64,000 nt of DNA from Takakia lepidozioides (Eukaryota; Plantae; Bryophyta). The notes below the pieces were generated by a model. That model was not told the origin of the DNA. It saw nothing but the letters and a program-made list of their open reading frames with translations, and ran no database searches. The translations under genes were made by a program, and so were the position numbers. This document shows positions 301-64,000 of this stretch, piece by piece; position 1 is the first letter of the stretch, and each line of letters opens with the position of its first letter. Location: the NCBI GenBank assembly GCA_030704615.1, contig CM060732.1:14880001-14944000 (forward strand), in the 5' to 3' direction.

Positions 301-744
301 ACTGTAGGTCCAACATCTGGTTCCCAATTGTCCTCAATGACTGCAACCTTGGGTACACCAGGCTTGGAGGTAGGAGACGAATCCTTTGGTTGCTAGATAG
401 CAACCTCTTGGGCCTTGTCCGCCCAATCTGACTATGGCATAGCCTCCACTTGCTCCGCCACAGCCACCTTGAGAACATCCTCTGAGCAAGAAACATTCTC
501 AACCTCTTCAAAAACATTGGCCACCTTTGCTTCTAACTGATCCTCAGTGTATGGCTCTCCCCACTCCTCATATTGCTGCTTGAGAGATCCAAGGACTCTC
601 TCTTTGCGCATCTCATCCCACATCTGCCATGGGTGTTTGCAACCCACGATCTTGTGCTCGCCTCCACTCACTGCCTCAACCGTCCCGGTTGGCAAGGAGG
701 ATGCACCATCCAATGGGAGTGTAGAAATAGCCATCAATGCTTGC

Positions 745-1640
745 AATCTCCGTTGCTCCGCCATGCACAAGCCAATTATCCATGTCAAGCAATTTAGAAC
801 CGTTGCCTAACCCAACACCTGGCGTCGTGATGCCTCTGACAGAGCTGGCACAGCTGTAGTGCCCGTGGCAAACCCCATTGCCCGCTCGCGCTCATCCGCA
901 TCGGGCTCCGCCAATTGCTGTAGCACACTGTCCCAAATCAACCCAAGACCATTGTCTCAAAAAGCATGAGACGAGGGAAAGCTCATGAGCGTAGGCAAGG
1001 TTGTACGTGGTTGCCCCACTCGATTGACCACTGCTAGAGGTGGACGGTCATCATGTCGCACCCTCTGTAGTTGCCTCCCTTGGTCCAAAATGCCCTCAAC
1101 CGTGAGATTGGGTGGCCGTTGAATGGAATCATATGCTCTCTTGAGCAGCTATGGTGGTGCAAGATTGGTCCACCACAATCGAGGTCGATGCGTGCGTGAT
1201 CCCACCGCTGTTGCATCCAATAGCACCGGTGATCCAGTCCAAGACCGCACCTGATGCACACTGGCCATAACCCTGGCCCGAGAGTCCCCCATAAGAGGAA
1301 CATTCTCCAAAGATATAGGCTAGAGGTTGCACTTGCCTCGTCTGCAAGTCACGCAACACTCTCAACATCTCCCAAAACAAATGTGATCGTGCATCATGCA
1401 AGCCATTCCCATGACCTGCGGGAGAGTGTCATTGGCAAGGCACCTATCATTGTTGAATTGCTGAGAGAGGCAACAACTTAGGATACCAGTGTGTGAGCAA
1501 GGCGATGTGGCGCATAGAAATACACCGAGCTATCTCATCCTTCTCCACATACAAGTACTTGCGTACTTTAATCCCTGCTTGCAATACTCCTGCAAGCCCA
1601 GTGCTCATGCCTCCAAACAAGTCTAGCAAACAAATCCCTG
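745..1640 (-). pseudogene. DNMT3-like C5 cytosine methyltransferase domain of copy A (frameshifted, motif IV deleted)
   Basis: Motif I ICLLDLFGGMSTG, GHGNGLHDARSHLFWEM, frameshifted AYI/LENVP, and ERERAMGFATGTTAVPALSEASRRQVLG C-terminal motifs. The GWPCQG segment is missing near 1430. Confidence 0.85.
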
Positions 1641-3312
1641 AGTCAGGTGGTTGCCAGGTAATGGGCACTGTGTCCAAAGGAGCTAACTCAGGAGGTCCAG
1701 GTGATGTCACCGAACTCCCCTCACTCACCAATGGAAAGGCCTTCTGCCATGCTTGGTGCACACACTCGCCTGCTACTTGATGCAAATTCCCAACCGTACC
1801 CCACAGTGGAATATGCACAGGCACATGAGGACGCAAATCAGCCTTGTATGCCAATTGTTTGTCCTCATCAGGTGATGGTCTATCATCTGCATGGCTATTG
1901 CCCTCCAAGAGCTCACCACCCCAAGCCACCACCCCTGAGAATGCAGCCAATGTGGGCATCATGTTCTTATGATCCACCGCTACATTCCCAATAAACCACA
2001 CTGGGAGCAGTGCATGTCGGCCATCTCCTGACTGCCATTCCGGCCTGTAGGATGTCGTTTTCTCCCAAAAGTCCAAAGTAAATCCCATGGGGTACAGCAC
2101 AACCCCACCAACAAGCACATCATAGGACATCACGTCCGCTTTAGCTCTCATGACTGAGCCGTCTGTAGGATGATCCGGCTGCAATCGAATGAAGAGCTCA
2201 TGGCGTGTAATCACTCGTGCCTTCTCTGAACCACCCAAAGATGTTTGAATTTGGAAAGGGCAAGGCTCCAAATCCGCCTCTGTAAGGCCCAAGCCTGCAA
2301 TTGCTGCTCTTCCCAACATCAATGGCTGTGCTCCTGAGTCTAACAAGACTCGCAGTGGCCTATACCTCCCCCCCGCTGGGCCACCCAACTGAAACACACC
2401 ATCCTGATTGTCCACCAGGACTACCCCAGGAGTCACCATACTGCGCTCAATGGCTGGTCTAGCTGGCAACTCCTGCAACCTTGCAGCTACCGCTTGCCAC
2501 GGCGTAGCTGTGGCTGTCTTCACCCTTGAATCCAGGGCATTCATGCATTGCATCTTATCTGCTATCCCCGCAGATAGTGCCGATGCATCACCACTCTCAC
2601 AGAGTGCAGCTGCCAGTCTAAACACTGTAGCTGGCCGCATCCCTGACATTGCAATTGTCGTGGCAGAAAACAATGAAGCTTGACAAATTGCCGTAGCCAC
2701 CCCCAACAATGTACTGGCTGCACCTTGCTTTGTAGTACCACCCACTGGCATTTCCCGAGCTATATCAACTCTCCCCAATGGCACTCGTGGCTCTACCTCT
2801 GACACACTTGGGCGAGCGGGTGCCATCGATGGCATAGTTGGCACTGTCTCAGCCAATGTGAAAGACTGTGGAAGCCTTGTCTGCCGACTTGTTTCCCCTC
2901 TTTGTGGATCAAAATCCACATCCGCTCCTCTTGGCTCAGGAGCACGCGTTGCTGCTCGAGTGACAACAGCTGTAGAGTCCACATGCAATGGTCCTGCAAG
3001 TGCGGCTCCACATATGAAGCCCATACCAATCTGGTCTTCCCTAGGCATAAGAGGTTGTGCAGGTGGGGCTTGAACCTCAGGCCTTGGAGTTGGCGTAACA
3101 TGAGTAGTGGCCATGGTAGCAAGACGTTGCTCTAGCTGGGCAAGCCTATCTACCATGCCTTGGTCATGACCTTGACCGTGACCCTGTGCTCCTTGGTTTT
3201 GGTTACAACCTCCACCACGACCTCTGCCTCCTCTACCTCTCTGGACTACATTGCCTCGTCCTCGGCCACCATTGTTCCCTTGGAACTGGCTTGGCCGTAG
3301 CTCAGGATGCAA
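1447..3312 (-). CDS. Gag C-terminus / aspartic protease / DNMT N-terminus of copy A polyprotein
   Basis: 621-aa ORF with an RG-rich gag tail, retropepsin motif LLDSGAQ and VLVG, running in frame into DNMT motif I. Confidence 0.85.
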   Translation of the reverse strand: MHPELRPSQFQGNNGGRGRGNVVQRGRGGRGRGGGCNQNQGAQGHGQGHDQGMVDRLAQLEQRLATMATTHVTPTPRPEVQAPPAQPLMPREDQIGMGFICGAALAGPLHVDSTAVVTRAATRAPEPRGADVDFDPQRGETSRQTRLPQSFTLAETVPTMPSMAPARPSVSEVEPRVPLGRVDIAREMPVGGTTKQGAASTLLGVATAICQASLFSATTIAMSGMRPATVFRLAAALCESGDASALSAGIADKMQCMNALDSRVKTATATPWQAVAARLQELPARPAIERSMVTPGVVLVDNQDGVFQLGGPAGGRYRPLRVLLDSGAQPLMLGRAAIAGLGLTEADLEPCPFQIQTSLGGSEKARVITRHELFIRLQPDHPTDGSVMRAKADVMSYDVLVGGVVLYPMGFTLDFWEKTTSYRPEWQSGDGRHALLPVWFIGNVAVDHKNMMPTLAAFSGVVAWGGELLEGNSHADDRPSPDEDKQLAYKADLRPHVPVHIPLWGTVGNLHQVAGECVHQAWQKAFPLVSEGSSVTSPGPPELAPLDTVPITWQPPDSGICLLDLFGGMSTGLAGVLQAGIKVRKYLYVEKDEIARCISMRHIALLTHWYPKLLPLSAIQQ

Positions 3313-4537
3313 GTCATAACAATGGGCCTCTTCATGCCCATACTTGCCACAATGCCTACATTGTAGTTGTGTAGGCTGTGCCTGTGCCAGCCCTTTGCCT
3401 CTCTCCGGTCAATCTCTCTTAACATGGGGTCCTCCACAATCCCAACATGTCACTCCTGACTATTGTTGGCCTGAGAATGAAGGAAATGACCTCTGCAATT
3501 GAGATCCTCTCTGTCCTTCCCTGGGCTTCGCCTCAGCCCCCTTGTTGCCTTGAGCACGTTGGGGTAGTGGTTGTTGTTGGCTAGGAGCCCCACTTCGTTG
3601 TGTCTCCTTACCAAAACCCACCATGACCACTCGCTCCTCCACCATATTGAGCTCTATCTGCTCTGCCAGCAAAAACACGTTTGCTAAGGTGGGTTGGGCC
3701 ACTTGTAGGAGAGTTGCATCCCGCACCCTTCTCCTCAGCTCCTTGTCCAATATCCCATACCAGAATTGGACTGCTTGAGCTTCCGTAACCCTTGGGTTAC
3801 ATTTATCAATCGCCTCATGCACGTGTAAGCCTCCCTTAAACTCTCGGCAGGCTTTCGTTGGAACTCTTGCAAGCTCCGCAATTTCTCCGTCGTTATCCCC
3901 TGGTAGTTTCTCCTTAACTCCTCGGAAAACTCCACAACTGGGTTAAAGGCAGGCACGGGTGTTGGTGCTACAGCAGGAGCTTGGGTGGACTTCCCAGCTC
4001 CTGTTCCACTTGACGTCCCACTGCTGCTTGCAGAAGCTGCCGGTGTAGCTGCCGGTGTCACCACTGCCCTTGTGCCTCTAGTGATGGAGACATAGTCAGG
4101 TGACCAATACACCCGCCATTCCTCAATCTCCACCTCATGTCCCCGCCTAAACTCATGGTAGTCATCCATGGGCGGCCCCTCAAGGTGCTGAAACAGCCCC
4201 TTCCACACCATAAAAGGCGTAAACAGTTGTGGATTGCGCATCTGCTGCAAATCACACCACTATCAAACTCCTGTATGAAATCATCAAGCTCGATGGTGCC
4301 CACAGCTCCAGAGTACCAACGTGGCCCCTTGGTAGCTCCATACGTTTCCTCCATCGTATCCCACAACAATGGCACGGAAATGGCTTGCACCCTCGGCGAG
4401 AATCCTCCTAACTCTGAGTCTGAACCTTCCTCAGAAGACACTGAAGGTGAAGGTGGCCTAAACCGCACACCTCGTCTTATATACCCACTAGTATCGCTGG
4501 TGCTCGTACCGGCACTCTCCTCAGCAACTGGTGGCAC
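3246..4537 (-). pseudogene. Gag of copy A (frameshifted)
   Basis: Overlapping ORFs 4058-4537, 3735-4250 and 3460-3822 are homologous to the gag region of copy C; zinc-knuckle remnants near 3310-3450. Confidence 0.8.
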
Positions 4538-5329
4538 CTCCGTGGTGAAAACTCACAACCACACCTGTTGTAAACCTGTCTCTAATCCCTCTTTCCACAA
4601 GGTAACCGGGTAGAGAACCTGTTGCGGCTTATGGCTTAGACTACTAGGTTTGTAACATAAACTTGCACCTGCATCCACCGCAAGCACTCCTATGGTCTGC
4701 TGGTCATCAACCCAGTCTTACCATAAGAGAAACAATGATGGTATGACTGGTCATCACCCCAGCCTCACCACCGACAGCACGCTCTAGGATTGACCGGTGA
4801 TCAAATCCGGACCAACCTCCTGTGAAAACAAGCGCCCACACAAAGCTAACATGGCGCACAGTCAAGCATGCAGGTGTGGAGAGGATCCAAACACAAGAAA
4901 TCAAGACAACAACTCCCCCACACCAAGAACACTCCATAGTGTCGCTCCTGCAATGACACCCCAGCCCAAACCCGGACTGACTCTTGCCTCCACCTACAGA
5001 AAGGTTTTGGCCTACAGAGAGGGTGGAAGACTACAAGGAAGAGAGACTAAAGCAATTCCTATCATAGAATGCTCTCATCCCACTACCCTATCTCCACACT
5101 CTCTTGCTTGAACAATATACAAGACTACCTTTCAAGGGTCTCTCAAATAACTCTCCAGGAGCCCTCAAGAATATGTCTCTCAAACAATCTCACTAAGGCT
5201 CCTAATCCTTGCACGATGAGACTCCAAAACAGTACACCAAGGCCCCAAGCTTGCCAAAACTTAGCCCTCGAGGACCCCAATAGTCCCTCACACAAGTCGC
5301 CAAAGACTCCTCAAGCTCGCCAAATATTG

Positions 5330-12590: not shown

Positions 12591-13599
12591 ACTGAGGTGA
12601 ATAAGGGTAGGTCATGCCCAATGACTGCGGGTGATGTATGCAACGGAATTTGGGGATTTCAATCTTCTGTAATAATGACATGCACGGAGATAGTCTGCAC
12701 CGAACTCCTCAATCAGCCACACTGAGAGACACCAACCAGAAAAACTGTTTTCAAAGACAAGAAGCCACAAGAAGCCGTATTGTATTTGGATGAAAAGCAA
12801 ACCCTGAACATGACATGAAACCATCCATTATGGAAAGACGGCAACGACCCTGGAGACCAGTAAAGAGGAAACCCCGAATCTAATGAGGTTGTGCTCCGCC
12901 AGAAGAGCACAACACAAACACTGACACTTCGGGGGACACCTCGCACGAATGTGTGCAACACAACACCATTGCCGACACAAACCTTTATACCGAATCACCG
13001 CATTCCGACGGTGATGGCGAAATGCAAACCGCAGGGTAGGCAGTACAACATACGTGGATGCATATGTGAAGCATCACAATTATTGCGAATCTGCGGGGAA
13101 TGCTTGCGCGTGAGCCTATGAGCGTGTGAGCCCAGCCAGGCTCACGCCACGTCAGCAAGGTTTCCCACGTGCAGGACCTAATTCCGCGGATGCCACCTAT
13201 TTCCGCGGAACTGCAGACGACTACCACGCCCCAGATTTGCCAACATTAATTTCCGAGAAGTCTCATCCCTCATCCAAATCTTAGTCGGATGAGAAATCAC
13301 GGGTGGTTTGTGGATGATTTTTGTCCACGGGCACAGGATATTTCAGAGAGTACAATGTCATGTTGCGTAATGAACACGAAGGAGAATGAGTTTGTTCTAA
13401 TGAAGTTCCGTCCCCCCAATTCACATCCACTTTTCATTGATAGACGTTCTCCAGACAAACACCAGGAAATCCCTAAAGCGTCTTTGCGGTTTATGAAAAA
13501 AACATGGTGCAGAACAGGTTGGCAAGACTTGCAATGTAAGACACGAAACGAAGAACAACAGGGCCAGCAACTATACAAAATACAAAAAAAAGTCCTAAA

Positions 13600-13817
13600 A
13601 AAAGAATGCTTTCATTTTTCAAATCAAGGTTGCGTCAACGCAAGGTTGATTTGCATCACCCTCCCAGGAAAAAAAAAAAAAAAAAAAAAACACTTTCATT
13701 TCTCAAATCAAGGTTGCGTCAACGCAAGGTTGATTTGCATCACCCCCCAGGGAAAAAAATAAAAATAAAATCAAAAAATCAAAAAATCCAAAAAATGATG
13801 CTTCATTTCTCAAATCA
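13600..13817. repeat. Palindromic repeat array, left part (ttctcaaatcaaggttgcgtcaacgcaaggttgatttgcatcacc plus A-rich spacer)
   Basis: Two full units plus the start of a third, which is interrupted by copy B. Confidence 0.9.
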
Positions 13818-13819
13818 GC

Positions 13820-13886
13820 TGTCGTGCGCATACGTATCCCTACACAACTACATCGCTGTCCAAACCACACCACACATATATGCATA
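13820..13886 (-). repeat. Terminal repeat segment B2 of copy B (partial duplicate of 14240-14324)
   Basis: Direct repeat of 14240-14306 with one mismatch. Confidence 0.9.
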
Positions 13887-13888
13887 TA

Positions 13889-14324
13889 TGATAGAAAAGC
13901 TAAGTACACACTGTTGACACAAAACATGACAACCAAAACCATCACTCTTTAGAATAAAAGTCGAGCCAGGGGCACCCCAAGCTATGGGGACTCCACCCCA
14001 CAACAACCTACACTCCCATCATAAGCACACTCAGTCCTAAACGATGCAGGAGCTCGGTCACGCAGGCTCAACTCGAGAGAGATGAGCCGCGCGATTGCCG
14101 CTCTCGTGAAGATAAGACGGGTCAGGTGTCAAACTAAACTTGACACTTGATTTAACACTTGACCTAAATCCAAGTGTTAAATACAAATAACTAGCTTTAT
14201 TCTAGCTAATTTCACACTGTGCTTATTTAACTTGACAGCTGTCGTGCGCATACGTATCGCTACACAACTACATCGCTGTCCAAACCACACCACACATATA
14301 TGCATAGTAAAGTAGTCTGCCACA
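13889..14324 (-). repeat. 3' LTR of copy B = B1 (14240-14324) + GC + A2 (13889-14237)
   Basis: On the minus strand it starts TGTGGCAG directly after the PPT and ends CTATCA. Confidence 0.9.
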
Positions 14325-14336
14325 ATCGCCCCCCTA
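14325..14336 (-). promoter_or_regulatory. Polypurine tract of copy B
   Basis: Minus-strand AGGGGGGCGAT immediately precedes the LTR TG; identical in copy C (54863-54874). Confidence 0.8.
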
Positions 14337-14584
14337 GCTGGTGGATAGGTCCCTCTAACTCCAGATAGCTACAAGATGTAATAGCCACAGCCGTACTAAG
14401 TCCTCTATCACTGTCCCTATTGCACTCAAACCCTATAGACTAAGAGGCCAGGTACAAGAGTAGCCCCATCGTTAGTCGCCGTCTTGCAATCTGTGAACTT
14501 GAGCCAGGACCTCGTGTGTTCAAGGTCTCCTAGTAGCTGGGCCTTGCGTTTCTTGTTAGCCTTCCATGGTTGTATCCACTCCCA

Positions 14585-15833
14585 CTATCCAATGCAATGT
14601 GGACATAACCAATCCCCATCCGGAACCATCTCAAGAGGTGGAGTCAAGCATCCCATATGCCAACCTCTAGAGCATCGATCACACACCAGCATGGTGGCTG
14701 CCCCTTTAGCAGACCCACACAACATGCACCTCAAACCTGCAGATACCACTGCCAGGTTTGGGTCAATCCTGCCATCGACATTCGGAAGGTGACATGGCGC
14801 ACAATTACGCACATGGTCCTTCCAAGTTATGCCATCCCGACCCTCCAAGACCAAGACGCCTGAGGGCAAGACCTCTCGAACCCTCAAAATAACACGTCCT
14901 GCAGTCACATCCAGGGTCGTAGGAGCAGTCTGCTGCAGATAGACATAGTCACCAGGGTTGAATCTCCGAACCCCAGGATGATAGCCCCCACCACGTATGG
15001 TAGCATACCTCAACGTATCACGGTGTTGTGCAATGGCAAGGTTCTCGAAAGCCATGGGCATGACTCTCTTGAACAACTCTGCACGCTGCTCACATGCACG
15101 TGCCCACACGTCTGGATCGTCAAGGTTAAGAACTGTAGCAGCTTCTCTGCGAATGGATGTAGGCAAATCCGGCTCTCGGCCAAAGAGAAGAAAGTATGGT
15201 GAGAAGGAGGCAAGTGATGCTTGCTTGCTGAACCTGTAGCCCATGGCTAACCAGGGTAACTGAAGGTCCCAATCTCCTAGGTGTCCCTTCTGCAAGCCAT
15301 ACTTGCGCAAACCCCTCTTTACTGTCTGAACAACTCTCTCTGCCAAGCCATCGGCCTCAGGATGATCCCGAGAAGTGGTGCGGTGGTCTATCAAGGCCTT
15401 GTCACACAAAGCTTGAAACTCCCCCAAGAACTCTCTCCCTTGGTCCGTGAGTACCTCAGCTGGAGCACCGAATCGGCTAAGCACACAATCCAGGAATGCA
15501 TACGCAGCTCCCTCACTAGCCTTATCAGGCAATGGAACCAAGTTCAATCCACTTGGAGAAGTGCTCCACCATCACCAACACGTACTTGTTGTGGCGCATG
15601 GTCAGTGGCAACGGCCCTGCGAAGTCAAGACTCCACCTGTAGCCCAATCCCATGATCGGAAGAGGGTGCAATTGTGGAGTAGGGGCGTTGAATGAAGCAC
15701 GCACCCTGTCACACACCATGCACCTAGCCACAAATTGTTGCACCTCTGTGTGCATACCACGCCACCAATACTGCCCCTGCAGTAGACTATGAGTGCGTCG
15801 CACCCCAAAAATGCCCCAACTCCTCATGGGCAT
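14585..15833 (-). CDS. Integrase (HHCC, DDE core) with C-terminal PHD finger, copy B (frameshifted)
   Basis: H(ee)LGHFG...CMVC, WSLDFAGP, VLTDQGREF, GLAERVVQT. The C-terminus is CMLC-X11-CDRC-X4-H-X2-C-X14-CPHC (C4HC3). Confidence 0.92.
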
Positions 15834-16088
15834 GCCGCACTAAACGTGCCCGCTGTGTTGGGTGAGGCACAATCCTCACTCGACCATCCTCCCACACTCG
15901 GAGCAGGTGTGTCCCCTCCCACCTGAACCTCTTGGCTCGTTGTAGGATCCGATCCCTCTCCTTGGCAGTCACAGTGGCTGCCGTGTCTCCAGTGCGGAGG
16001 TAGTCCAACACAACTGAATCCTCATGTATATCTTTGGCGCCACCTTGTTCATTGCTGGCCTCAGGGTCCTCAGACACTTGATCCACAG

Positions 16089-17553
16089 TCATCCCAGTTG
16101 CAGGTCCAACCTGGCCTTCCGCTGCCAAGATACACAGAAATGCAGATGCATGCCATCCGGGCACCATCTCCTCATCCGTCTCACCATGCCACCGAGCCCA
16201 GTGTCATCCTGTTGGCTCGTGCATGGATTGCGACTCAACCCATCTGCATTACGATTGACCAAACCCGGTCGATGCACCACCTGAAAGTCATACTCTTGAA
16301 GGATGAGTGCCCACCGTGCAAGCTTCCCCGTAAGCTTGTCTGACTCCATCAACCACTTGAGTGGTTGGTGATCCGTGACAAGGGTGAAGAGATTGCCGTA
16401 TAGATAGCACCTAAAGTGTGCCACGGCCCACACTGCAGCTAAGCATTCTCCCTCATATGAGCTATACTTAGACTCTGCAGCGTTGTTCGAGCGGCTAGCA
16501 TAAGCCACTACGAACTCTCTCCCCTCATCATCCACCTGTGTGAGCACCGCTCCAAGCCCCAGCATGCTCCAATCTGTATGCAGCTGAAAAGGACGCCCCC
16601 TGATAGGTCGTCTCAAGATGGGCGCCGAGGTCAACCTCGCCTTGAGCTCTTGAAAAGCTTGTTCTTGCTCATCTTCCCACTGCCACTCCTGGTCCACCTT
16701 GGTCAGCTTGGTTAGAGCCTTTGCAATGGCACTAAATCCCTTAACAAACCGTCTGTAATAATTTGCTAACCCCATGAAAGCTCGAACTCGGCTCACATCC
16801 GTGGGGCGTGGAATCTGTGCAATGGACTCTACCTTAGTCTGCTGTACCCCCAATCCTCCAGGATATATCATGTGACCCAGATACTCAATCTGGTTGTGGA
16901 AAAACTTGCACTTGCCCGGATGTAACTTCAATCCGTGCGTCCTTAAGCGCTCAAATACCCCCTGAAGGTGTCTCTCATGCTCCTCCACCGTAGCACTAAA
17001 GATGATGATGTCATCTATGTAGCACCGAGCAAACTCCACCCCTGCTAGAATCCTGTCCATGACTCTTTGAAACTCAGCGGGAGCGTTTTTAAGCCCAAAT
17101 GGTAAGAACCGCCACTGGTATAGGCAATCCTTCCCATGCTCATTGATCCCCCAGAATGCCGTCTTTTGCTTATCCGCCTCCTTGATCGGCAACTGGTGAT
17201 ATCCGGATCGTAAATCCAACGTGCTAAAGACCTTGGAATGCCCAATGGCATCAAAGATCTCCTCTGGTGTTGGCATGGCATACCTATCGGACTTGGTCTG
17301 ACGATTTACAGGCCGGTAATCACCGCACATACGTCTCTCCGTCCAATTGCCATAGACATCCTTCTTAGCTGGCATCACTGTGGCTGAAGCATACTCTCCA
17401 CCAGAGAGCTCCACCAAACCTGCCTCCCAGAGTCCTCATCTGAATCAAAGACCTCTCTATGTCACTGTATCTATAGGGTCTCCGAAATATTGGCGTGTCA
17501 GTGGCCAACTCAATACGGATCTCTTGACCCTTCAGTGCTCCCAAGTCCTTCAA
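16089..17553 (-). CDS. Reverse transcriptase and RNase H, copy B
   Basis: RMCGDYRPVN, STLDLRSGYHQ, LPFGLKNAPAEFQ, CYIDDIII; RNase H LHTDWS, YEGECLA, VTDHQPL, NADGLSR. Confidence 0.95.
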
Positions 17554-17999
17554 ACTGAAGGCAAAGCAATTCCTGTAAGCCCTCAGGAACCGCCGTATAC
17601 ATCGTCTCTCTCCTCCGGTGACAATGGGTCCAATGTCAAGCTCCCAATTGTCCTCCGTAACTGCAACCTTAAGTCCAGTGGGCTTAGAGGTAGAGGACGC
17701 GTCTCGTGGTTGCTATGCTGCAACCTCTTGAGCAGTACTCCCTTCCTGCTCAGTCAATGACAAGGCCTCATCCTGCCCCATCATCTCATCATTGAGAACC
17801 TCCTCATCCCGAGAAGAATCCCCAACCTCATCCATCACAGCTGCCTTGGCTGCCACCTCCCTCTGAACCTCGAGCACCTCCCACGTGTGCCATGGATGTC
17901 TACACCCCGAGGTCCTCACCGGCTCGCCCCCACTCGCTGCCTGTACCGTCTCGGTAGGCAGAGAGACCGTCAAGGGAAGTGCACTCCGCACTCTACGTT

Positions 18000-18951
18000 G
18001 CTCAGCCATAGCCAAGCTGATAATCCAGGTCAAGCAATTGAGATCCATTGCTTGCCCCAACACCTGACGACGTGATGCCTCCGAAAGAGAAGGCACCGCC
18101 GTGGTCCCAGTGGAAAATCCCATAGCCCGCTCTCGCTCGTCGGCATTAGGCTCCACTAACTGTTGCAACTGGCTATCCCACAAGAGGCTAGGTCCACCAT
18201 CCCGAAAAGCATGGGATCCTGGGAAGCTGAGCAGTGTAGGTAATGCTGCTCATGGTTGACCCACCCTGTTGACCACTGCCAAAGGCGAACGGTCATCGTG
18301 TCTCACACGTTGAGACTGCCTCCCTGTGTCCAAAATGCCATCCACGGTGAGGTGTGCTGGCCGTTGCACCCCATCAAATGCACGCTTAAGCAGTGCGGGT
18401 GGCATCAAGTTAGTCCACCAAAGCCGTGGACGATGAGCCCGTGATCCCACTGCAGCTGCATCCAGCAACACTGCTGACCCAAGCCACGACCGGACTTGAT
18501 GCACACTGGCCATCACCCTGGCCTGAGAATCACCCACCAGTGGCACATTCTCCAAGATGTATGCTGGAGATACAGCTTGATAAAGCTGCAAGTGGCGCAA
18601 AACCCGCACCATCTCCCAAAACAGACCCGTCCTCGAGTCTCGCAATCCATTGCCATGCCCGGCTGATGAATGCCCTTGGCAGGGCCAACCTGCCACTATC
18701 AGATCAATGGAGCCAACCTGCTCCAAATCTTGCGCCCCCAACAAGGAAATGTCTGCTGGCAAGGCTTGAACTGCAGACACTGGCAACAAAGCAGGGTACT
18801 GCTATACCAACTGAGCAACATGGCGCAGTGAGACGCGTCGTGCAATCTCATCCCTCTCCACATACAGGTAACGCCTTACCCGCACACCTGCCTGTAGCAC
18901 AGCAGCCAATTCGGTGCTGATCCCGCCAAACAAGTCCAGAAGGCAAATGCC
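18000..18951 (-). CDS. DNMT3-like C5 cytosine methyltransferase domain, copy B (catalytic PCQ and ENV intact; frameshifts elsewhere)
   Basis: IDLIVAGWPCQG (IV), GLFWEMVR, YILENVP (VI), DAAAVGSRAHRPRLWWTNL (VIII), ERERAMGF...RRQVLGQAMD (IX/X); motif I at ~18900-18950. Confidence 0.92.
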
Positions 18952-19241
18952 TGTGTTCCAAGCCTAGCTTTCACCCACTTTGGTATTTCACCTACAGCTG
19001 CAGAACTGCTGGCTCCAACAGAGTTCTGACTGTCCAAGGCGATATTGAGGCCCTCAATGCCAATTACAGCAGTCTGTTGTCTACTGCTAATGCCTGACTC
19101 CCAGTATGCAATCAACTCGTCCAACTGTTCTCCACTCAAATCAGTCTGAGTTCCTTGGGAAACATAAATCCTATCCCCTTGTGTGCACAGGCTAAGAGAA
19201 GAGACCTGCCCTTCAATTACGTCCTCATTTCCCCCAGCCAT
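18952..19241 (-). pseudogene. Truncated extra ORF (ORF0) of copy B
   Basis: The first ~97 aa match 62873-63622 and are fused out of frame to the DNMT by an internal deletion. Confidence 0.8.
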
Positions 19242-20088
19242 ACAAGGAGTACATCCACAGATTTGTCTCTCATATAGACCAGAACAGGTTCTAGAAACAG
19301 AATTGTGGATCTTTCATGGCACACTCACACTCTAAAAATTCCATAGATTTTTAGCAGAGTCCCAAAAACTAAAACCAGATCAAGATAGATAGATTTCCCC
19401 TTTCTGCAGCTATCCCCCCAAAAACTGAGTCAAACGGAGTCCATCTGACAAAGTTATGACCAATTAGGCTCTAAATCATTTAAATTAGATCTAAAGGTTT
19501 TTTTTTTTTTTTTTTTTTAACACCAAAACGTTCTCACCATTACAACCTGTTCCCAGGTTATCTATGGGTTCCCGAGGCCGTTCCCCTCCAGGCTTCTCCA
19601 GGCACCAAGAACTCTCCAACTCCAAGACTCGACCTCAGTTATGGATGGGGTATCACACCCTGGAGCAGCAGGCGTGCGATAACGGATTGCCCTTCATCAC
19701 CGAATTGGGGACAATGGCAGAGCTCGAGCGCCTGGGCTTAAGCGCATCCGAGATTGATGATCTCCGACACAGTCTCAAGGCATTTCCACATGCCTTTCAG
19801 CTCTACATCAGCGGCAGATTTTGAGAAGTCATGCAGACAGACTGCTACAGCCTAACACTTTACAGCAAATTGAAATTCCTTGTGTCTGGGCATCAACACC
19901 GAAAGCCTATGTAGGTACGCATGCAAAAATTGTTGATGATGGCTGATATATGTGCCTATTCAAGAGGCCCGTTGCAGGTTAAAGGGCGATTGGTAGGGAA
20001 ATAGGCAAGAGTACTTTCCACTGAGCTGACCTTACGATCCCCAGAACTACTTGGAAACGGTAGCAACGAGAGCAGAGGTCGGACCTCA

Positions 20089-20388
20089 TCAGTGGGAGGG
20101 CACCCAGATGAGATCATTATGAGTTGACCAATGGCATGCTTCGGCTCCCTGAATAATGTTGAGAGCCGTGAAGGCAGGATGCTCTGATGCCCAGAGACTG
20201 GTATCCAAATGACATATGGCGACTGCGTGAATGATTGATCCATCTACAGCTGCCAACGACGCCTGCACCACCTTGGTTCCTGTGACATGATGGCAGTAGT
20301 AGAGAGCCGAAGGAAACATAACGTTGTGGCAAATGACAACATTCTCGCCCTCTACCACACTTCGCTTGGTAAAGTCAACAACCTTCAC
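20089..20388 (-). pseudogene. BURP-domain gene fragment captured inside copy B
   Basis: Four CH dipeptides and a terminal W (VICH...YYCH...AICHLDTS.W...ACHW...LIWVP), the BURP signature. Confidence 0.8.
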
Positions 20389-20488
20389 TGGTGCCTTGGT
20401 AATGCCTACACGTCCCAGTGATTTTGGTGAACAAGACTGACAAGGCCAACAGTTTTTTTTTTTTTTTCAAGAAAGCTGCTAGGTGCTT

Positions 20489-21222
20489 TCAGCAGGCAAG
20501 TGAGAGTGGATCGCTCAGGTGCGTGGCCCAGTTGTCCAAGGGACCCTTGCCTGTAGCAGCAGCTTGCACAGCAAAACCCAAAGCAGCAACCATGGCCAGC
20601 CTTGCATGCTTAATTTCGGCGAGTTTTAGAACCTCTTTCTTCTCGGGGTCAGCTGCCAGTCCGAGGGGATCGAAGTACTTGCCACCAGGATACAAACGCC
20701 TCTCTGGGTCTAACTCGGCATTCCTTTGGAACTCAATGTATCCTACCACAAGAGTCTCAATCCAGACAAGAGCAGAGATGCTGAACGGCAACGAGAGACC
20801 AAAGTAAGAGGGACCATCAGCAAGTTCCACCTTTACAGCATCTTGCCATGTCACGCCAGTGAACGTCTCGACAGACAACGCTCAACAATGGCAAGCATTG
20901 CCCATTTACCGTGGATCAGTTCGCATTCCTTGAACCTTTGGAGGCCGAACACCTCACTGTACGGTCGGAAGGGAATGGGGTTGATATCCTTCTTCTTATC
21001 AAGACGGGTTCCGATCACAACTCTAGCAGAGTTCTTAGCCAAGTTCTGGTTCAGTGAATCCAGCTCGAACTGCAGATACTCTGGAGATTTTCCCAAGGAC
21101 AGTGGATCGAAACCGTAGTCACCAACCAAAGATCCATCCAGCCCAGACGGGGCCTTTGCACCTGGGAACCACAGAGGCCTATCCGCCGACCCAGTCTTCT
21201 TAGACCCAAACAGCAGGTCCAA
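20489..21222 (-). pseudogene. LHCB4: Lhcb4/CP29 chlorophyll a/b-binding protein fragment captured inside copy B (frameshifted, intronless, ends truncated)
   Basis: [82 protein letters not shown]. Confidence 0.9.
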
Positions 21223-21428
21223 CCCACCTGCTTGTTGGCTTGGACCCGCTACATTCCCAGGAGGTTAGAACTGCTGTAGTGACACTTCGAGTGGTTCCTG
21301 CCTTTCTGTTATGCTCCACTAGGCACACATAGCCAGTCTACCTACCGGCTCTCGTGACCAAGCTATATTATAATAGTGCTTAAAAACAAAAACGTCACAT
21401 CTAGCTTAGCACTAGAAAACTAGATACA

Positions 21429-21444
21429 GCTCATCTCTCTCGAG
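21429..21444 (-). promoter_or_regulatory. Primer-binding site of copy B, self-priming type
   Basis: 16 nt directly adjacent to the 5' repeat end; perfect reverse complement of 21628-21643 inside the same repeat; no TGG tRNA-type start. Confidence 0.75.
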
Positions 21445-21793
21445 TGATAGAAAAGCTAAGTACACACTGTTGACACAAAACATGACAACCAAAACCATCA
21501 CTCTTTAGAATAGAAGTCGAGCCAGGGGCACCCCAAGCTATGGGGACTCCACCCCACAACAACCTACACTCCCATCATAAGCACACTCAGTCCTAAACGA
21601 TGCAGGAGCTCGGTCACGCAGGCTCAACTCGAGAGAGATGAGCCGCGCGACTGCCGCTCTCGTGAAGATAAGACGGGTCAGGTGTCAAACTAAACTTGAC
21701 ACCTGATTTAACACTTGACCGAAATCCAAGTGTTAAATACAAATAACTAGCTTTATTCTAGCTAATTTCACACTGTGCTTATTTAACTTGACA
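21445..21793 (-). repeat. 5' terminal repeat A1 of copy B
   Basis: 349 bp, TGTCAAG...CTATCA on the minus strand. About five differences from A2 (13889-14237). Lacks the 85-bp B segment. Confidence 0.92.
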
Positions 21794-22040
21794 CAAGGTT
21801 GCGTCAACGCAAGGTTGAATTGCATCACTCCCCAAGGAGGAAAAAAAAAACAAATCTTCAAAAAATGATGCTTTCATTCTCAAATCAAGGTTGCGTCAAC
21901 GCAAGGTTGATTTGCATCAACCCCCCCCCCCCCCAGGGAGGAAGAAAAATAAAGAAAAATAAAAAATAAAAAATAATGATTTCATTTCTCAAATCAAGGT
22001 TGCGTCAACGCAAGGTTGATTTGCATCACCCCCAGGGAGA
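21794..22040. repeat. Palindromic repeat array, right part (continuation of 13600-13817)
   Basis: Three more caaggttgcgtcaacgcaaggttga units. Confidence 0.9.
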
Positions 22041-22197
22041 AATAAAAAATAAAAAATAAAATAAAATCGTATGTCTGTCGGTGTATGTCACGTCATCAAT
22101 CATGTTGTGCGTGCGTCTACCATTTGTTGCATTCGTTCCTCAAACTCATTTGTTCATTTGCGAACACATCAAGTCACATTCAAATGAACATTCTCGG

Positions 22198-22441
22198 AAA
22201 TCAACCTCGTGTTAATACAAGGTTGATTTCGAGAACTTCAAATCAACCTCGTGTTAACACAAGGTTGATATCAGTTCTAGGAAATCAACCTCGTGTTAAT
22301 ACAATGTTCATTTCAAGTTCTTTGAAATCAACCTCCATGTTAACACAAGGTTGATTTCAGTTCTAGGAAATCAACCTCGTGTTAATACAAAGTTCATTTC
22401 AAGTTCTCTGAAATCAACCTCGTGTTAACACAAGGTTGATC
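22198..22441. repeat. Tandem ~42-bp palindromic units aaatcaacctcgtgttaacacaaggttgattt
   Basis: Six near-palindromic copies. Confidence 0.9.
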
Positions 22442-29344: not shown

Positions 29345-30974
29345 GTTTCTACCTTAGCTCGACTCCACCACGGGTAGGGTGGTATGGAGTTGAGCGCTGT
29401 GTGAGGCATTGTGTAGCGGAGAGCCGATTTCCGTATAATAGGTAGTAAGCTAGGAGGAGTTTGTTTATATAGGAACTATTGGTGTTGTTTGTATTAAGCT
29501 TGGTTTCTTGTAATAGGATAATATGTGGAGGCGTAGTGTCTGTGAGAAGGTGTATTAGACTTTGGATGCTAATGGCCAATGAACCGACATTCCAAGTGGT
29601 TATGTTGAGTGAGTTTGCGTGTTGGGGAGGAGTGGGTTGGGAGTGGTTGGGTGAAGCAGGCGTTGGGGGGTCCCTGTTGTGAGTAGGTGTGAATGACGAG
29701 AGGGGAGGGCGGGGGGGGGGGGGGGGGGGTGCCAGCGAGGGTTGATATCTTGCAATGGTGGAGGTAGCTTGGAGGGTGGCGGAAAGAATGTTGTTGGATA
29801 GGAATGGAAATTTGTTGGTGATAGTATGAGAGTCTAGTGCGGGGTTTGCTAACTGTTCACCTATATTTTGTGAGCTTCCCCTGGTTTGGATTGTAAGAGG
29901 TGAAGCGACGTGTGTAGGTCAGATAGGTAGTGAGGGGGGTCCAGGTATTGGGGGGACTTTGTAGTTTGTGTAGAAGTGTGTGGACCTGTGAGTCTGAATG
30001 GGCCTCAAAGTAGTCGTTACATATTGTTGTTGGTGGGGAGATAATGATGATTAGGGAAAAGAGAAGGTGTTGTGCGGGGTATGTTCTGAATTCATGGGTA
30101 GCTTTAGCGAGCGCTAGGTATTGACATGGAAGAAGGCCAAATTTGGCAATTGGCTGGGTGGATGTGTGAGTGGTGATTGATATGTTTAGAAGAAAGGGAG
30201 AGAAGTGGTCGCAAAAGTGTTGATATGCGGGTACTAATGAAATGGTGTTTATTTGAAAATATAGTGCATATATTTCTTGTGGGTCAATTGAGAGTTCACC
30301 AATGAGGTCATTGATAGGGTTTGGATGAATGTCTCCACATCGCATAAGTATAAGTGTTGCACATGCAATTTTAATTGTGTTGTGATGTGAGGGGGGGGGG
30401 GGGGGGGGGTGGTGCTGTGAATGTTTAGATTTAAGGGGGGTATTGATGGTATCGGCCATGCGGGCAGTGGGTAATAAGGTAGGTTTTAGGAGTTCGGTAT
30501 ATAGGTGTACACAGGGGGTAGGTAGCGTGGGGGTGTGTTTGAAGTATATAGTAGGGGGTAGTATTCAAGGGTAAGAGTAGAACGGGTCTTTGATGAGTGA
30601 GAGGGGGAGTCTATTAACGGGCAATTTTTGTGTGCCGAATAATTTCCATGAGAAAAAATGCTTTAAGTATGGAACGGAGATGATGAAGAGTACCACAGAC
30701 CGAGTTGTTGGCGGTGGGGTATTGTTGAGCAGGACGTTGGCTTAGAAAAATATGAATGAAATGGTATAGTATGAGTTGGTACAGCATGAATGTAGAAGCT
30801 GATATGGGAAATAGTGGTGTGTAGGGTAGACGATTTAAAATGGTTGTTCGTGAGACATGGTATGATAGGGTCTTTGTAGATACCGCGGATGTAATATGAT
30901 GTGCAAGGAAGATGTAGATCGTTGTGTGAATGTGATTGAATTGAATAGCAGTAGTGGGGAGGAGGACCTTCCCA

Positions 30975-34261: not shown

Positions 34262-35511
34262 AGGGAATTCCAAAAAGGCCTTATGTGAAATGCATTGCAA
34301 TTCACTTGATCACCCCCCTAAAAGTGCGCAATTCAATTGAATTGCAGGGGCAATTCAATTGAACTGCTAAAATTAGCTTGAAAACAACCCTAATTTGCAA
34401 TTCAATTGAATTGTCGGCACACGATTCAATTGAATTGCTAGTTGACAATTCAATTGAATTGTTGACTGTAATTCAATTGAATTGTGAATTGGCAAATCAA
34501 TTGAATTGCTGATTACAATTCAATTGAATTAATCTATAATTTTTTAACTTATTTCTGTATATATTGTATATATATGTACATATTTAAATTATACATATAC
34601 GCATATAAAAGTATAAGCTAAAAATACATGTTGGCCATCTATTCTTGTTGTCCATCTGTCAATCCTTTGCCCGTGGTAAGGCTTGAGCCCGAGATAAGCC
34701 TAAGGGAGAGCGAGAGAGGGAGAGAGAGAGAGGAAGTCACGAAGCGCTTGTAAAAGCGGGATTGTCCCTCTTTGTGGATGTTGGTGCCAATATATGGCTA
34801 TGTACATATACCAAACATGATACCAATGTAAGAGTATCAACGTGTAAGAGTTTGATATATTAAACTTAATATGGAACACACATCCCAACTTCAACATGAT
34901 ACCTTTGTAAGGGTATCGAAACAATATTATTTTTGATAATTCTCAAGATGAACATATCATTTGTTTTCTTTGTCCTGGGCCAGATACTAGTGTTAGGGGA
35001 CTACATGATGATGCAGGGGAAGCCTTTCATCAATTGTCAGGTTTGATTTTGTCTGTTTCTTTCAGAGCCAGCCATGTTTCTTTTGCCAGTGAATCACAGG
35101 AAGCTGCTGATCTCTCTCCCTCTCTGGCTCTCCCTTTCTCGCTCAGACTGAGGCTCAGGCTGGCTTCACAACTCCACAATTTCCTCAAGGGCACAAGAAA
35201 GAGGGGCAGCAAGAATAGACGGGCAACATGTATTTTCAGCTTATACTCTTATATGTGTATAAGTATAATTTGAATATATATATATATATAATATACAGAA
35301 ATAAGTTAAAAAATATAGATTACAATTCAATTGAATTGCCAACTAGCAATTCAATTCTGCAATTCAATTGAATTGCAAATTAGGGTTGTTTTCAAGCTAG
35401 TTTTAGCAGTTCAATTGAATTGCCCTTGCAATTCAATTGAATTGCGCACTTTTAGGGGGGTGATCGTGAATTGCAATGCATTTCACATCAAGGCCTTTTT
35501 GGAATTCCCTA
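34262..35511. mobile_element. Foldback-like hAT MITE with long inverted arms
   Basis: Ends (T)AGGGAATTCCAAAAAGGCC; arms ~270-350 bp built of CAATTCAATTGAATTG palindromes; 8-bp TSD GACACAGG (34254-34261, 35512-35519). Confidence 0.88.
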
Positions 35512-46500: not shown

Positions 46501-47491
46501 TTTGAGAGTATCTCCACTAGTCCTAGCCCGTTTCCTAGTGGTGTGTTCCTTGTGACTGCCTTCCTCGCGTCCCCGCTTACTGTGGTGATGTGATCTCTCC
46601 TCCTTTGTCCCTCGGGGTTTATGCCGATGCTTGCCATGTTTCCCATCCCCTTTCTTGCCTTCCCGCTTTCCATGCTTCTCCTTTTGGGCAGCCTGCTCCG
46701 CCGGTGGGCGAGGCCTTAACTCTTTGCGGCTTCCTGTATCCCCATCCACCTGTTCTTCATCCACCTTCTCATATTCCTGGTTCAAGATATTGTTGTAGAG
46801 GTTACTTGCAGGTTTCATGAAAGTCGAACCTAAAAGACCTACTCGATGATGCAAATAACCGAACTAAACCACCCCATGCTCAAAACTCCCAAATGTGACT
46901 GCTTGTTCTCACGTAGAACATAAAGTGACAGTTACCAACCTGTTTGCGAGTCGATTCAAGGAGCATAAGATGAGGGATGTCATCTTCATACGGCCATGGA
47001 GGAACTTCATTACACTGAATGTGGAGAACCTTGGGCACGTAGCCTGAATACTTCCATAATTGCTGACAAAAAACCGTTGATATTCCAACAAACATGCGTG
47101 CATCGCCCCCTGGTGTGCCTTGTACATGCACTCGGTCCTCGATTGGCATTTCGGCAGAACTATGGGGGTGGTCTGGGAAAACCTCGCAATTCTTTTCATG
47201 TGTTTTCTCGTCAAAGCTCACGGGCTTTCCAGGAAGCTCGGCGAGCAGCTGCGCAACCTCCGATTCTTCGGTTTCTTTCTTCTTCTTGCTCTTGCATTTG
47301 TCACAGACATATGTGCTGAGCCCTTTGGGCACGCGACAACATGCCGTGTGGACCCAGACCCCACATTCATCGCACTCAACCATCTCTTCTCCATCGTCGA
47401 AATTGACCCCACAAGGACAGTCGACAATCCAGGACTCGTCGCCCCAGTCGTCCGACTCCGAACTGGAAGGATGATGTGCCTTGCCACCCAT
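37565..47491 (-). CDS. Multi-exon PHD-finger protein (plant family resembling Arabidopsis AT1G32810/AT4G10600)
   Basis: ATG at 47491; N-terminal PHD WIVDCPCGVNFDDGEEMVECDECGVWVH..C..CDKC; EVAQLL.ELP; VHVQG.PGGD; ALLLHQELNSSPRVPRVPR; GERYMYGTHRQAVLDCLRNR. Approximate exons: 47491-46940, 46830-46300, 45507-45010, 44777-44070, 43916-43615, 43150-41780, 41627-41433, 40989-40600, 39034-38921, 38101-37565. Confidence 0.85.
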
Positions 47492-47564
47492 AGCCTGATC
47501 CACTGAAACTACACTAACCCTAGAGCAAAAAAGAAATAAGGGTTGGCGTACGTTGGTGTGCACG

Positions 47565-47596
<32 letters not shown>

Positions 47597-53251: not shown

Positions 53252-53659
53252 GTGGCTACTTCATTGACAATGGGAGTGATGTAGTGTGATGGTTGGGGAT
53301 TTGCACAGCCTGTTCCTCAACATCTTTGATCTTCATATTCCTTGGTTTGACAATAAAACTACATATTTGCCTACCTAATCCTTGCTGCATGTGCAACCGC
53401 TGATTGAGGTGCTATTTAACAATAAATTTCAGATGCCAATATCATATACATATATCATGACCTTCCCATCCTCACAAGTGCAGCCCAAGCCCCCCCCACC
53501 CAGTCCAATAAAACTTCCCTTGCTAGCATACTCAAATGGGACGACTTTGAAGCCTCCAAATCCCTACAAAAATCAAAATATGAAGACGCAATCACATTGG
53601 CCATTCCTAGGACCACCATGTTCCATGAAACAGGCATATGATTCCGGGGTGATGCCTCT

Positions 53660-54340: not shown

Positions 54341-54425
54341 TGTCGTGTGCATACATATCGCTACACAACTACATCGATGTCCAAACCACACCACATATAT
54401 ATGCACAATAAAGTAGTCTGCCACA
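54341..54425 (-). repeat. Terminal repeat segment B2 of copy C (85 bp)
   Basis: Direct repeat of 54778-54862 with two mismatches; TG...CA ends. Confidence 0.92.
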
Positions 54426-54426
54426 A

Positions 54427-54862: not shown

Positions 54863-55121
54863 ATCGCCCCCCTAGCTGGTGGGTAGGTCCCTCTACCTCC
54901 AGATAGCTACAAGATGTAATAGCCACAGCCGTACTAAGTCCTCTATCACTGTCCCTATTGTACTCAAACTCTATAGACCAAGAGGCCGGGTACAAGAGTA
55001 GCCCCATCGTTAGTCGCCGTCTTGCAATCTGTGAACTTGAGCCAGGACCTCGTGTGTTCAAGGTCTCCTAGTAGCTGGCCTTGCGTTTCTTGTTAGCCTT
55101 CCATGGTTGTATCCACTCCCA

Positions 55122-63622: not shown

Positions 63623-63919
63623 ACAAGGAGTACATCCCCAGATTTATCTCTCATGTAGACCAGAACAGGTTCTAGAAACAGGATTGTGGATCTTTCATGG
63701 CACACTCACACCTTCTTTTTTTCTTTTTTTAAAAAAATTAATAAATTTTATAATAAGACAACAAATACAAAGAAAACTCTTTTAAAATAAAAATAAAAAT
63801 ACTTGTCTTGGTTCCTGTTCCCAGGTTATCTACAGGTTCCCAAACATGTTCATGTAGTTCTCACAGTCTGGATTCACCCCTCCTCTCGTTCTGTGCTCTT
63901 ATGATGTGGCAGTGCGTGG

Positions 63920-63985
63920 GATGTGAAGGTCGGTGATGCGGGTCTTGGCCTTTCTGTCAAGGAGAACGTGAGAAGGCTTCAGATC
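63920..63985 (-). pseudogene. Protein kinase (subdomain VIb-VII) fragment in the leader of copy C
   Basis: Translates DLKPSHVLLDRKAKTRITDL, resembling DLKPSNVLLD....ARIADF. Confidence 0.55.
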
Positions 63986-64000
63986 AATACACCCTGTGCT

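What the first reader, a model, noticed from the sequence alone, without database searches (positions are those of the whole stretch)
19574..21250. Variable cargo slot in the retrotransposon leader: Lhcb4 and BURP fragments in B, kinase fragment in C
Seen: between the PBS and ORF0, B carries an intronless Lhcb4 piece, an A-tract (20453-20467 on minus), a BURP piece (both pieces in the element's sense) and another protein-like stretch (19580-19910). At the equivalent position C has unrelated sequence with a kinase-like peptide (63920-63985). Inference: closely related copies swap host mRNA-derived cargo at one site, probably by RT template switching. A methyltransferase-bearing element carrying host sequences could trigger silencing of the donor genes or mimic them.
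Basis: partly seen in the sequence, partly recalled or inferred. Interest (0 to 1): 0.7.

Follow-up and report, generated by a model that had tools for sequence, protein, structure and literature searches.

The report
Retrotransposon carrying three host-gene scraps
A broken copy of a methyltransferase-bearing jumping gene in a moss-like plant carries stitched pieces of three host genes, one of them backwards, likely picked up mostly from RNA and then copied along with it; this is a new case of a known kind of gene capture, with no sign here that it silences the donor genes.

Summary
The cargo is real, but the description needs correcting. B's leader holds three host fragments, each about 97% identical to contigs from two RNA-type runs: Lhcb4 (20504-21203, sense), a previously missed TOM20 piece (20388-20503, ANTISENSE) and BURP with its 3'UTR (19796-20399, sense).

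The A-tract is not a poly(A) tail. It is a T-run inside TOM20 coding sequence, 9 bases shorter in the parent. The 'protein-like stretch' is largely BURP 3'UTR. C's kinase peptide is not significant (Pfam E 0.11-0.17).

The Lhcb4 piece reads across a site where Marchantia- and Sphagnum-type genomic ORFs break, which favours an mRNA template. BURP and TOM20 overlap by 12 nt. However, the DNA contigs show no intron branch there, so an intronless parent is not excluded.

The cargo is older than B's insertion and probably lies in a few copies of a very large family. The variable zone has nested edges rather than one site. In 23 related leaders no such cargo was seen. The donors are transcribed, and the methyltransferases of B and C are both broken.

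Verdict: Bs1-type multi-gene capture, here in a KnitGypsy-Dnmt3-like, split-repeat, self-primed gypsy element.

The parts
21445..21793 (-). 5' repeat A1 (TG...CA, 349 bp), 4 differences from A2
21429..21445 (-). Likely self-primer binding site: 17-nt perfect complement of 21627-21643 inside A1
   Evidence: a 17-nt complement of the same kind in relative L010
21204..21428 (-). Element leader, shared by progressively fewer copies towards the cargo; hairpin 21212-21250 ends 8 nt before the cargo
20504..21203 (-). Lhcb4/CP29 fragment, sense, lacking both ends of the coding sequence; frameshift at 20880
   Evidence: colinear with RNA-type contigs of two studies, 21 differences and 1 gap in 700 nt
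20830..20831 (-). Exon-exon-like point (WQDAxK|VEL) crossed without an intron
   Evidence: genomic-type ORFs P0110, P0109 (Marchantia cluster) and P0094, P0097 (Sphagnum cluster) end or start exactly here
20388..20503 (+).
   Evidence: PF06552 E 3.4e-6; RNA-type and DNA contigs continue beyond it
20453..20467 (+). T15 run (the 'A-tract'): a coding T-run of TOM20 lengthened by 9 bases, not a poly(A) tail
   Evidence: 9 letters left out in parent-type contigs of X1, X3, X5, X6; length variants -9, -7, +2, +3 in X3
20388..20399 (.). 12-nt overlap shared by the BURP and TOM20 parents (junction microhomology)
   Evidence: BURP contigs reach 20399 and TOM20 contigs start at 20388; chance about 1e-6 if the overlap is exact
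19796..20399 (-). BURP-domain gene fragment, sense: last ~100 codons, stops, and 3'UTR 19796-20088
   Evidence: PF03181 E 8e-28; 16-17 differences and 1 gap in about 603 nt
19662..19795 (.). Unidentified piece that travels with the cargo (same contig depth)
   Evidence: no hit
19546..19661 (-). Subfamily leader; includes the 28-nt motif 19546-19573 shared with C (63814-63841); other copies leave it at 19592 and 19661
18948..19330 (-). 5' part of ORF0, an unnamed accessory ORF; joined over a 2-nt overlap to the methyltransferase region by a ~3.9-kb deletion that removes gag and protease
18210..18950 (-). C5 cytosine methyltransferase domain, broken by two in-frame stops
   Evidence: PF00145 E 9e-14
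14585..17435 (-). RT, RNase H, DDE integrase and PHD finger, frameshifted
13820..14335 (-). 3' end: polypurine tract, B1 (14240-14324), GACA-GC-TGTC palindrome, A2 (13889-14237), B2 (13820-13886, first 17 nt missing)
63842..64000 (-). Element C's different leader (cut by the window end) with a kinase-like peptide at 63920-63985, not significant

Best explanation
Element B is a gag-less copy of a methyltransferase-bearing gypsy retrotransposon whose leader holds joined fragments of host Lhcb4, TOM20 (backwards) and BURP genes, likely captured in an ancestor by reverse-transcriptase template jumps onto host RNA and likely spread afterwards as passive cargo by intact family members. SHOWN: the identity, limits and orientation of the three pieces; about 97% identity to RNA-type contigs; the 12-nt BURP/TOM20 overlap; loss of gag; cargo-parent divergence (about 3%) greater than LTR-LTR divergence (1.1%). 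INFERRED: the spliced origin of the Lhcb4 piece; RT as the joining enzyme; that the short antisense TOM20 piece came in by a jump during second-strand synthesis, onto a cDNA, or as a repair filler; mobilisation in trans; and that the non-coding leader simply tolerates replacement, so that different subfamilies carry different sequence there without a function.
For: Lhcb4 piece is colinear with RNA-type contigs of two studies across 20831/20830, where 4 genomic-type ORFs from the Marchantia and Sphagnum clusters end or start (P0110, P0109, P0094, P0097). All 1,408 identified bases match RNA-type contigs, with no intron-like insert. Pieces are partial, lack poly(A) and flanking duplications, and one junction has a 12-nt overlap, the features listed for LTR-mediated retroposition (PMC5131818, passages). 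A1/A2 differ at 4 of 349 bases. Window-only differences from the DNA contigs are about 13 in 1.57 kb, while a parent-type contig in the same DNA run differs from the window at 9 of 161 bases and the cargo-type contig at 2, so capture preceded B's insertion. Cargo-type against parent-type depth is 271 against 54 in run X3, a weak hint of several copies. 16 of the 25 listed differences are C-to-T in B, 10 of the 16 in CG/CHG (p 0.03), as expected of silenced, methylated DNA.
Against: DNA run X3 shows one unbroken contig 20504-20881, no joint and no listed loose end at the intron site (6 of 10 loose ends and 8 of 58 pieces shown). So this species' Lhcb4 parent may be intronless, or a short intron branch was removed by the assembler (my recollection of assembler behaviour, not tested). 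Six other short Lhcb4 ORFs read across the site, two of them seen on contigs of 5.3 and 8.3 kb (P0099, P0113); whether those are transcripts is unknown. The TOM20 piece is antisense and lies within one genomic exon for at least 104 of 116 nt. The BURP piece shows no branch either, so neither tests splicing. The Lhcb4/TOM20 junction shows no overlap, and the other junctions could not be scored. The RNA status of X5 and X6 is the tool's guess, though their depth pattern (LTR near zero, Lhcb4 high) fits RNA. Contig depth is not a copy number.
Confidence: 0.6

Rival explanations
1. The pieces were copied from genomic DNA by double-strand-break repair (synthesis-dependent annealing or polymerase-theta end joining) into a chromosomal or extrachromosomal copy of the element, then amplified by retrotransposition.
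For: Mixed orientation; one microhomology junction and one blunt junction; no intron branch seen in DNA contigs; TOM20 piece inside one exon. In this clade the A2|B2 junction differs in every copy examined (window B and C, L010, L017, L036, L043), one with a filler of about 18 nt, which suggests that the cDNA meets host end-joining. Maize Sirevirus captures show no orientation bias (10.1101/777037, passages).
Against: The Lhcb4 piece crosses a site with an intron in two bryophyte lineages. All identified bases are transcript sequence, and one donor is by far the deepest contig laid in its RNA-type run.
Confidence: 0.25
2. The Lhcb4-TOM20-BURP chimera was built elsewhere (a LINE-made chimeric retrocopy, or another element's cargo) and entered this leader as one block by recombination.
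For: A LINE-type endonuclease remnant lies in the window (weak, E 7e-4). Depth rises about threefold over the TOM20 piece, with several variants.
Against: No poly(A) tail at either piece: the BURP transcript continues at least 100 nt beyond 19796, and the A-tract is internal to TOM20. No flanking duplication found. The extra TOM20 depth is explained by parent copies and overlapping short contigs.
Confidence: 0.1
3. The cargo is a separate Helitron or Pack element nested in B after its insertion.
For: A 15-bp-arm hairpin lies next to the 5' edge.
Against: No terminal inverted repeats or target duplication around the cargo. The cargo is older than B's LTRs and is present in DNA contigs that lack B's private changes. 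The hairpin lies in leader sequence with higher depth than the cargo.
Confidence: 0.04

Closest known systems
Maize Bs1 and LTR-mediated retroposition (Bs1 via review PMC13317346, passages; Tan et al. 2016 PMC5131818, passages; the primary Bs1 paper was not held)
   Same: Partial fragments of three host genes joined inside an LTR element, junction microhomology, no poly(A) or TSD around the cargo, non-autonomous carrier copied again after capture.
   Different: The cargo sits in the leader and does not replace pol; one piece is antisense; no chimeric ORF (stops and a frameshift); the carrier is a split-repeat, probably self-primed, methyltransferase gypsy in a bryophyte.
Sirevirus gene capture and epigenetic conflict in maize (10.1101/777037, passages)
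   Same: LTR elements with captured exon fragments (204 of 6,200; 15% of them with two or more; no orientation bias; preference for 3' exons), with proposed siRNA cross-talk to donors.
   Different: Copia there, gypsy here; no siRNA or methylome data here, and the donors appear transcribed.
KnitGypsy-Dnmt3 of Klebsormidium nitens (PMC5890265, passages and section 9; 'streptophyte Gypsy-DNMT3' in 10.64898/2026.05.21.726589, passages)
   Same: C5 methyltransferase inside a gypsy polyprotein; 'DIRS-like' repeat structure with gypsy domains.
   Different: Here in land plants (relatives in Marchantia, Calypogeia and Sphagnum), with a PHD finger, an accessory ORF0 and host cargo; none of these appear in the passages I read. 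Supplements were not opened.

Membership tests
LTR-mediated gene capture (Bs1 type) | Host gene fragments enclosed between the terminal repeats of one element | tested here: met
LTR-mediated gene capture (Bs1 type) | Introns of the parent gene are missing | tested here: inconclusive
   Site crossed where 4 bryophyte ORFs break, but 6 others read across and no branch shows in the host's DNA contigs; no host assembly was held
LTR-mediated gene capture (Bs1 type) | Microhomology at switch points | tested here: inconclusive
   12 nt at 1 of the 2 junctions with both parents in view; none seen at the other; the remaining junctions could not be scored
LTR-mediated gene capture (Bs1 type) | No poly(A) tail or target duplication belonging to the cargo itself | tested here: met
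LTR-mediated gene capture (Bs1 type) | Secondary retrotransposition of the cargo-bearing, non-autonomous copy | tested here: inconclusive
   Cargo older than the LTR pair, gag deleted, and shared cargo changes in DNA contigs; other insertion sites not seen
LTR-mediated gene capture (Bs1 type) | All pieces in the element's sense, as a simple minus-strand switch between mRNAs predicts (my inference from the model in PMC5131818) | tested here: not met
   TOM20 is antisense; antisense capture is reported for maize Sireviruses, so this limits the mechanism, not the class
KnitGypsy-Dnmt3-like elements | C5 methyltransferase domain within a gypsy gag-pol (RT-RH-INT order) | tested here: met
KnitGypsy-Dnmt3-like elements | Split (A...B-A-B) terminal repeats with a DDE integrase | tested here: met
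   B; 3' end of C; relatives L010, L017, L036, L043. The paper's figure was not visible, only its legend
KnitGypsy-Dnmt3-like elements | Methyltransferase falls in the Dnmt3 clade with the K. nitens sequences | not tested
Pack-MULE / Helitron nested insertion | Own terminal inverted repeats and target duplication, or TC...hairpin-CTRR ends bounding the cargo | tested here: not met
   the hairpin lies in higher-depth leader
L1-type processed pseudogene | 3' poly(A) tail at the transcript end plus target duplication | tested here: not met
   The A-tract is a TOM20 coding run; the BURP transcript continues past 19796

The most novel reading that the evidence does not exclude
The leader of this very large methyltransferase-gypsy family is a capture hot spot in which many subfamilies hold different host fragments in both orientations, because the family's circle-based insertion route exposes its cDNA to host end-joining. 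The genome would then hold a large, self-renewing library of gene scraps inside elements that encode their own DNA methyltransferase, a direct test bed for transposon-host epigenetic conflict in a bryophyte.
Probability: 0.12. Interest if true: 0.75.

Novelty: new member of a known kind. Interest (0 to 1): 0.36.

Why it matters
Capture of several host genes by LTR elements is established in maize, rice, sorghum and animals. One search of the held library (bryophyte + moss + LTR retrotransposon + gene capture) listed 3 papers, none on this by title or abstract, so a bryophyte case with mapped parents, a junction overlap and an antisense piece is a modest addition. It would matter more if the whole family proved to rotate cargo, or if capture were tied to the circle-type insertion of this clade. 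The carrier's odd ends are more unusual than its cargo, but they were noted in print for K. nitens and by earlier reports of this scan.

Tried and rejected
No host genome was held, so parent genes and other copies could not be read directly.

Poly(A) reading of the A-tract: rejected.

Piece 19662-19795: I considered an LRR or F-box fragment on either strand. Pfam gave only DUF7621 at E 0.21 and nothing with stops read as X; the 5.8-billion-protein search gave 0 of 39 candidates; the Atlas gave no usable hit. No RNA-type contig covers most of it, which is no evidence either way.

Kinase in C: not significant.

The shared 28-nt motif was not found in metagenome contigs. The viral collection gave one unrelated phage-type methyltransferase locus.

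Element A (1455-5011) is too diverged, and its upstream DNA is unrelated to the leaders of B and C.

ORF0 as host cargo: unlikely. It has 23 unnamed relatives of similar length with no Pfam family; the Atlas TraN hits (0.83) are chance-level.

The run search listed no holder on record as RNA; X5 and X6 are guessed RNA.

A paper search for the Lhcb4 intron position found nothing usable. Earlier-findings look-ups for this genome, by sequence and for the cargo were empty.

Full report
SETTING. The window is repeat-rich plant DNA; no assembly was held. Element B (13820-21793, minus strand) and element C (54340 to beyond 64000) are 96% identical over 5.1 kb. They carry C5 methyltransferase, RT, RNase H, DDE integrase and PHD domains. 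B has lost about 3.9 kb (C 59467-63329: most of ORF0, gag, protease) across a 2-nt overlap, so it cannot be autonomous. Named relatives of the methyltransferase are liverwort and Sphagnum proteins at 48-70% (36 hits). The N-terminal Lhcb4 piece is closest to mosses (85%, against 76% for Marchantia, among 12 compared). The host is a bryophyte, probably moss-like (inference).

WHAT THE CARGO IS. I laid 4 of the 11 listed runs on 19200-21900: two DNA runs of one sample and two guessed-RNA runs from two other studies. In both guessed-RNA runs one contig covers 20504-21203 (21 differences, 1 gap) and continues at both ends into further Lhcb4 sequence. Another covers 19796-20399 (16-17 differences, 1 gap) and continues at least 100 nt past 19796, so 19796-20088 is BURP 3'UTR. 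The gap between them, 20388-20503, matches a third transcript on the opposite strand, and its read-through hits TOM20_plant above the curated cut-off. The A-tract lies within this piece and is 9 bases shorter in parent-type contigs of all four runs. It is a slipped coding run, not a poly(A) tail. 19662-19795 travels with the cargo but stayed unidentified. C's peptide resembles a kinase catalytic loop but reaches only E 0.11-0.17 and E >= 0.86.

RNA OR DNA TEMPLATE. The window reads [12 protein letters not shown] without a break at 20831/20830. Among the 10 short Lhcb4 ORFs retrieved, 4 end or start at exactly this point: P0110 and P0109 (Marchantia cluster, 2.2-kb contigs) and P0094 and P0097 (Sphagnum cluster, contigs up to 13 and 32 kb), as expected of an intron. 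The other 6 read across it, and their source (transcript or genome) is not given. That angiosperm Lhcb4 has an intron here too is recalled, not tested. Against this, DNA run X3 shows an unbroken contig 20504-20881 and no joint (only 6 of 10 loose ends and 8 of 58 pieces were shown). A parent-type contig of 162 nt survived next door, so a long intron should have left a branch. A short one may have been smoothed out, or the parent lost it. I put the odds that the parent keeps the intron at about 2 to 1 (judgement). TOM20 is colinear with a DNA contig over 20388-20491 and BURP shows no branch, so neither tests splicing. The BURP and TOM20 parents overlap by 12 nt at their junction (about 1e-6 by chance if exact); the Lhcb4/TOM20 junction shows no overlap.

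AGE AND SPREAD. A1 and A2 differ at 4 of 349 bases, cargo and parents at about 3%. About 13 changes in 1.57 kb are private to the window copy, and the rest are shared with the cargo-type DNA contigs. Capture therefore preceded B's insertion, and the cargo moved with the element. Summed contig depth in X3 is 4.8-7.8e5 on the LTR, 2.7-2.9e5 at ORF0, 1.1-1.2e4 at the shared motif and 370-450 on the cargo; cargo-type against parent-type contigs is 271 against 54. The tool warns that this is no copy number; I read it only as 'large family, few cargo copies'. Depth falls in steps on both sides (41,000, 11,800, 2,200 on the 5' side; 150,000, 12,000, 2,100 on the 3' side), and other copies leave B's sequence at 19592 and 19661. 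No DNA joint that skips the cargo was listed. So the leader is a hypervariable zone with nested edges. What the other copies hold there was not identified.

IS THE SLOT CLADE-WIDE? Of 80 related loci from metagenome contigs, 23 span repeat A to gag; at least three pairs are the same insertion. All 23 align to one leader of about 1.14 kb. Seven have a 150-240-bp indel and one (L073) a 0.9-kb LTR-like insertion. Six-frame Pfam scans of three of these stretches found no family. None of the 43 loci of 6 kb or more matched ORF0. In these relatives, mostly one family, the slot does not exist; it appears specific to the window's family.

SILENCING. 16 of the 25 listed differences inside the cargo are C-to-T in B, against 4 in the other direction (p 0.006); 10 of the 16 are in CG/CHG against 37% background (p 0.03; the listed rows are a subset chosen by the tool). 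This fits a methylated, silent copy. The donors appear as contigs in both guessed-RNA runs. B's methyltransferase has two in-frame stops; C's has lost the ENV motif and is frameshifted. A methyltransferase domain has no known way to read cargo homology (established knowledge), so any effect on donors would run through siRNA, as published for maize. Nothing here tests it.

THE CARRIER. B runs A1 - internal - PPT - B1 - A2 - B2, with ends TGTC...GACA and a GACA-GC-TGTC palindrome at B1|A2. Relatives show the same form, or A - internal - B. Of 9 two-ended loci, 7 have an exact 4-bp target duplication, 1 has one mismatch and 1 is unresolved; B's own flanks match at only 2 of 4. The A2|B2 junction differs in every copy examined, sometimes with filler. 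This suggests integration of end-joined circles cut at the palindrome (inference). It agrees with the legend for KnitGypsy-Dnmt3 and with two earlier, unchecked reports of this scan. It is not new here, but it gives the DNA-repair rival some weight.

LITERATURE SEEN. PMC5890265 (passages and section 9); PMC5131818, PMC13317346, 10.1101/777037, 10.64898/2026.05.21.726589, PMC12344493, PMC6317226 and PMC12885004 (passages only); others as search listings only. No supplements were opened. Those of PMC5890265 may list land-plant Gypsy-Dnmt3 copies, and those of PMC5131818 may give fragment orientations.

VERDICT. Real, better resolved than first described, and of a known kind: Bs1-type multi-gene capture, most likely by RT template jumps (0.6), with DNA repair as the main rival (0.25). 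The 'swapping cassette that silences donors' reading is not excluded but has no direct support (0.12). Interest 0.36.

Noticed in passing
window 13820-14335 and 21445-21793; 54340-54864; L010, L017, L034, L036, L037, L043, L044, L045, L073: Permuted LTRs on a DDE-integrase gypsy: A...B-A-B and A...B forms, GACA-GC-TGTC palindrome, 4-bp target duplications in 7 of 9 two-ended relatives, variable A2|B2 junction. Suggests integration of 2-LTR and perhaps 1-LTR circles; B1-B2 recombination could also give the A...B form.
   Followed up: partly
window 21429-21445 / 21627-21643; L010 2017-2033 / about 1842: 17-nt self-complementary primer site, as described for Tf1/Tcn1-type self-priming (PMC6317226, passages).
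   Followed up: partly
window 62876-63643 (C), 18948-19330 (B): ORF0 belongs to an unnamed protein family of about 200-240 aa (23 relatives, no Pfam) and did not match the 43 longer related loci.
   Followed up: partly
window 13584-13817 and 21794-22067: B is inserted into a short tandem repeat (unit about 90 bp); its flanks match at only 2 of 4 bases as a target duplication.
   Followed up: partly
window 19546-19586 and 21742-21793 (run X6, record 26): One guessed-RNA contig joins the start of repeat A to the shared leader motif with only 27 other bases between: a rearranged or heavily deleted family member.
   Followed up: no
window 20880-20966: Cargo-versus-parent differences cluster here (7 substitutions or gaps in 87 nt among the listed rows), perhaps a second donor paralog or gene conversion elsewhere in the piece.
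   Followed up: no
window 432-5011: Element A, an older relative (about 70% to C) that is closer to Marchantia polyproteins over a 653-aa open frame; its ends were not found.
   Followed up: partly
P0113 / P0118 (moss-type cluster, contigs up to 8.3 kb): A truncated Lhcb4 ORF that reads across the intron site and then turns into unrelated sequence: possibly another captured or processed Lhcb4 fragment in a different moss.
   Followed up: no
window 22191-22440, 34262-35510, 29352-29918, 46883-47644, 52703-53260: Palindromic short repeats, a weak LINE-type endonuclease hit, a lone PHD finger ORF and a hAT dimerisation domain.
   Followed up: no
L073 5784-6697: A 0.9-kb TG...CA insertion, probably a solo LTR of another element, in a relative's leader.
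   Followed up: partly
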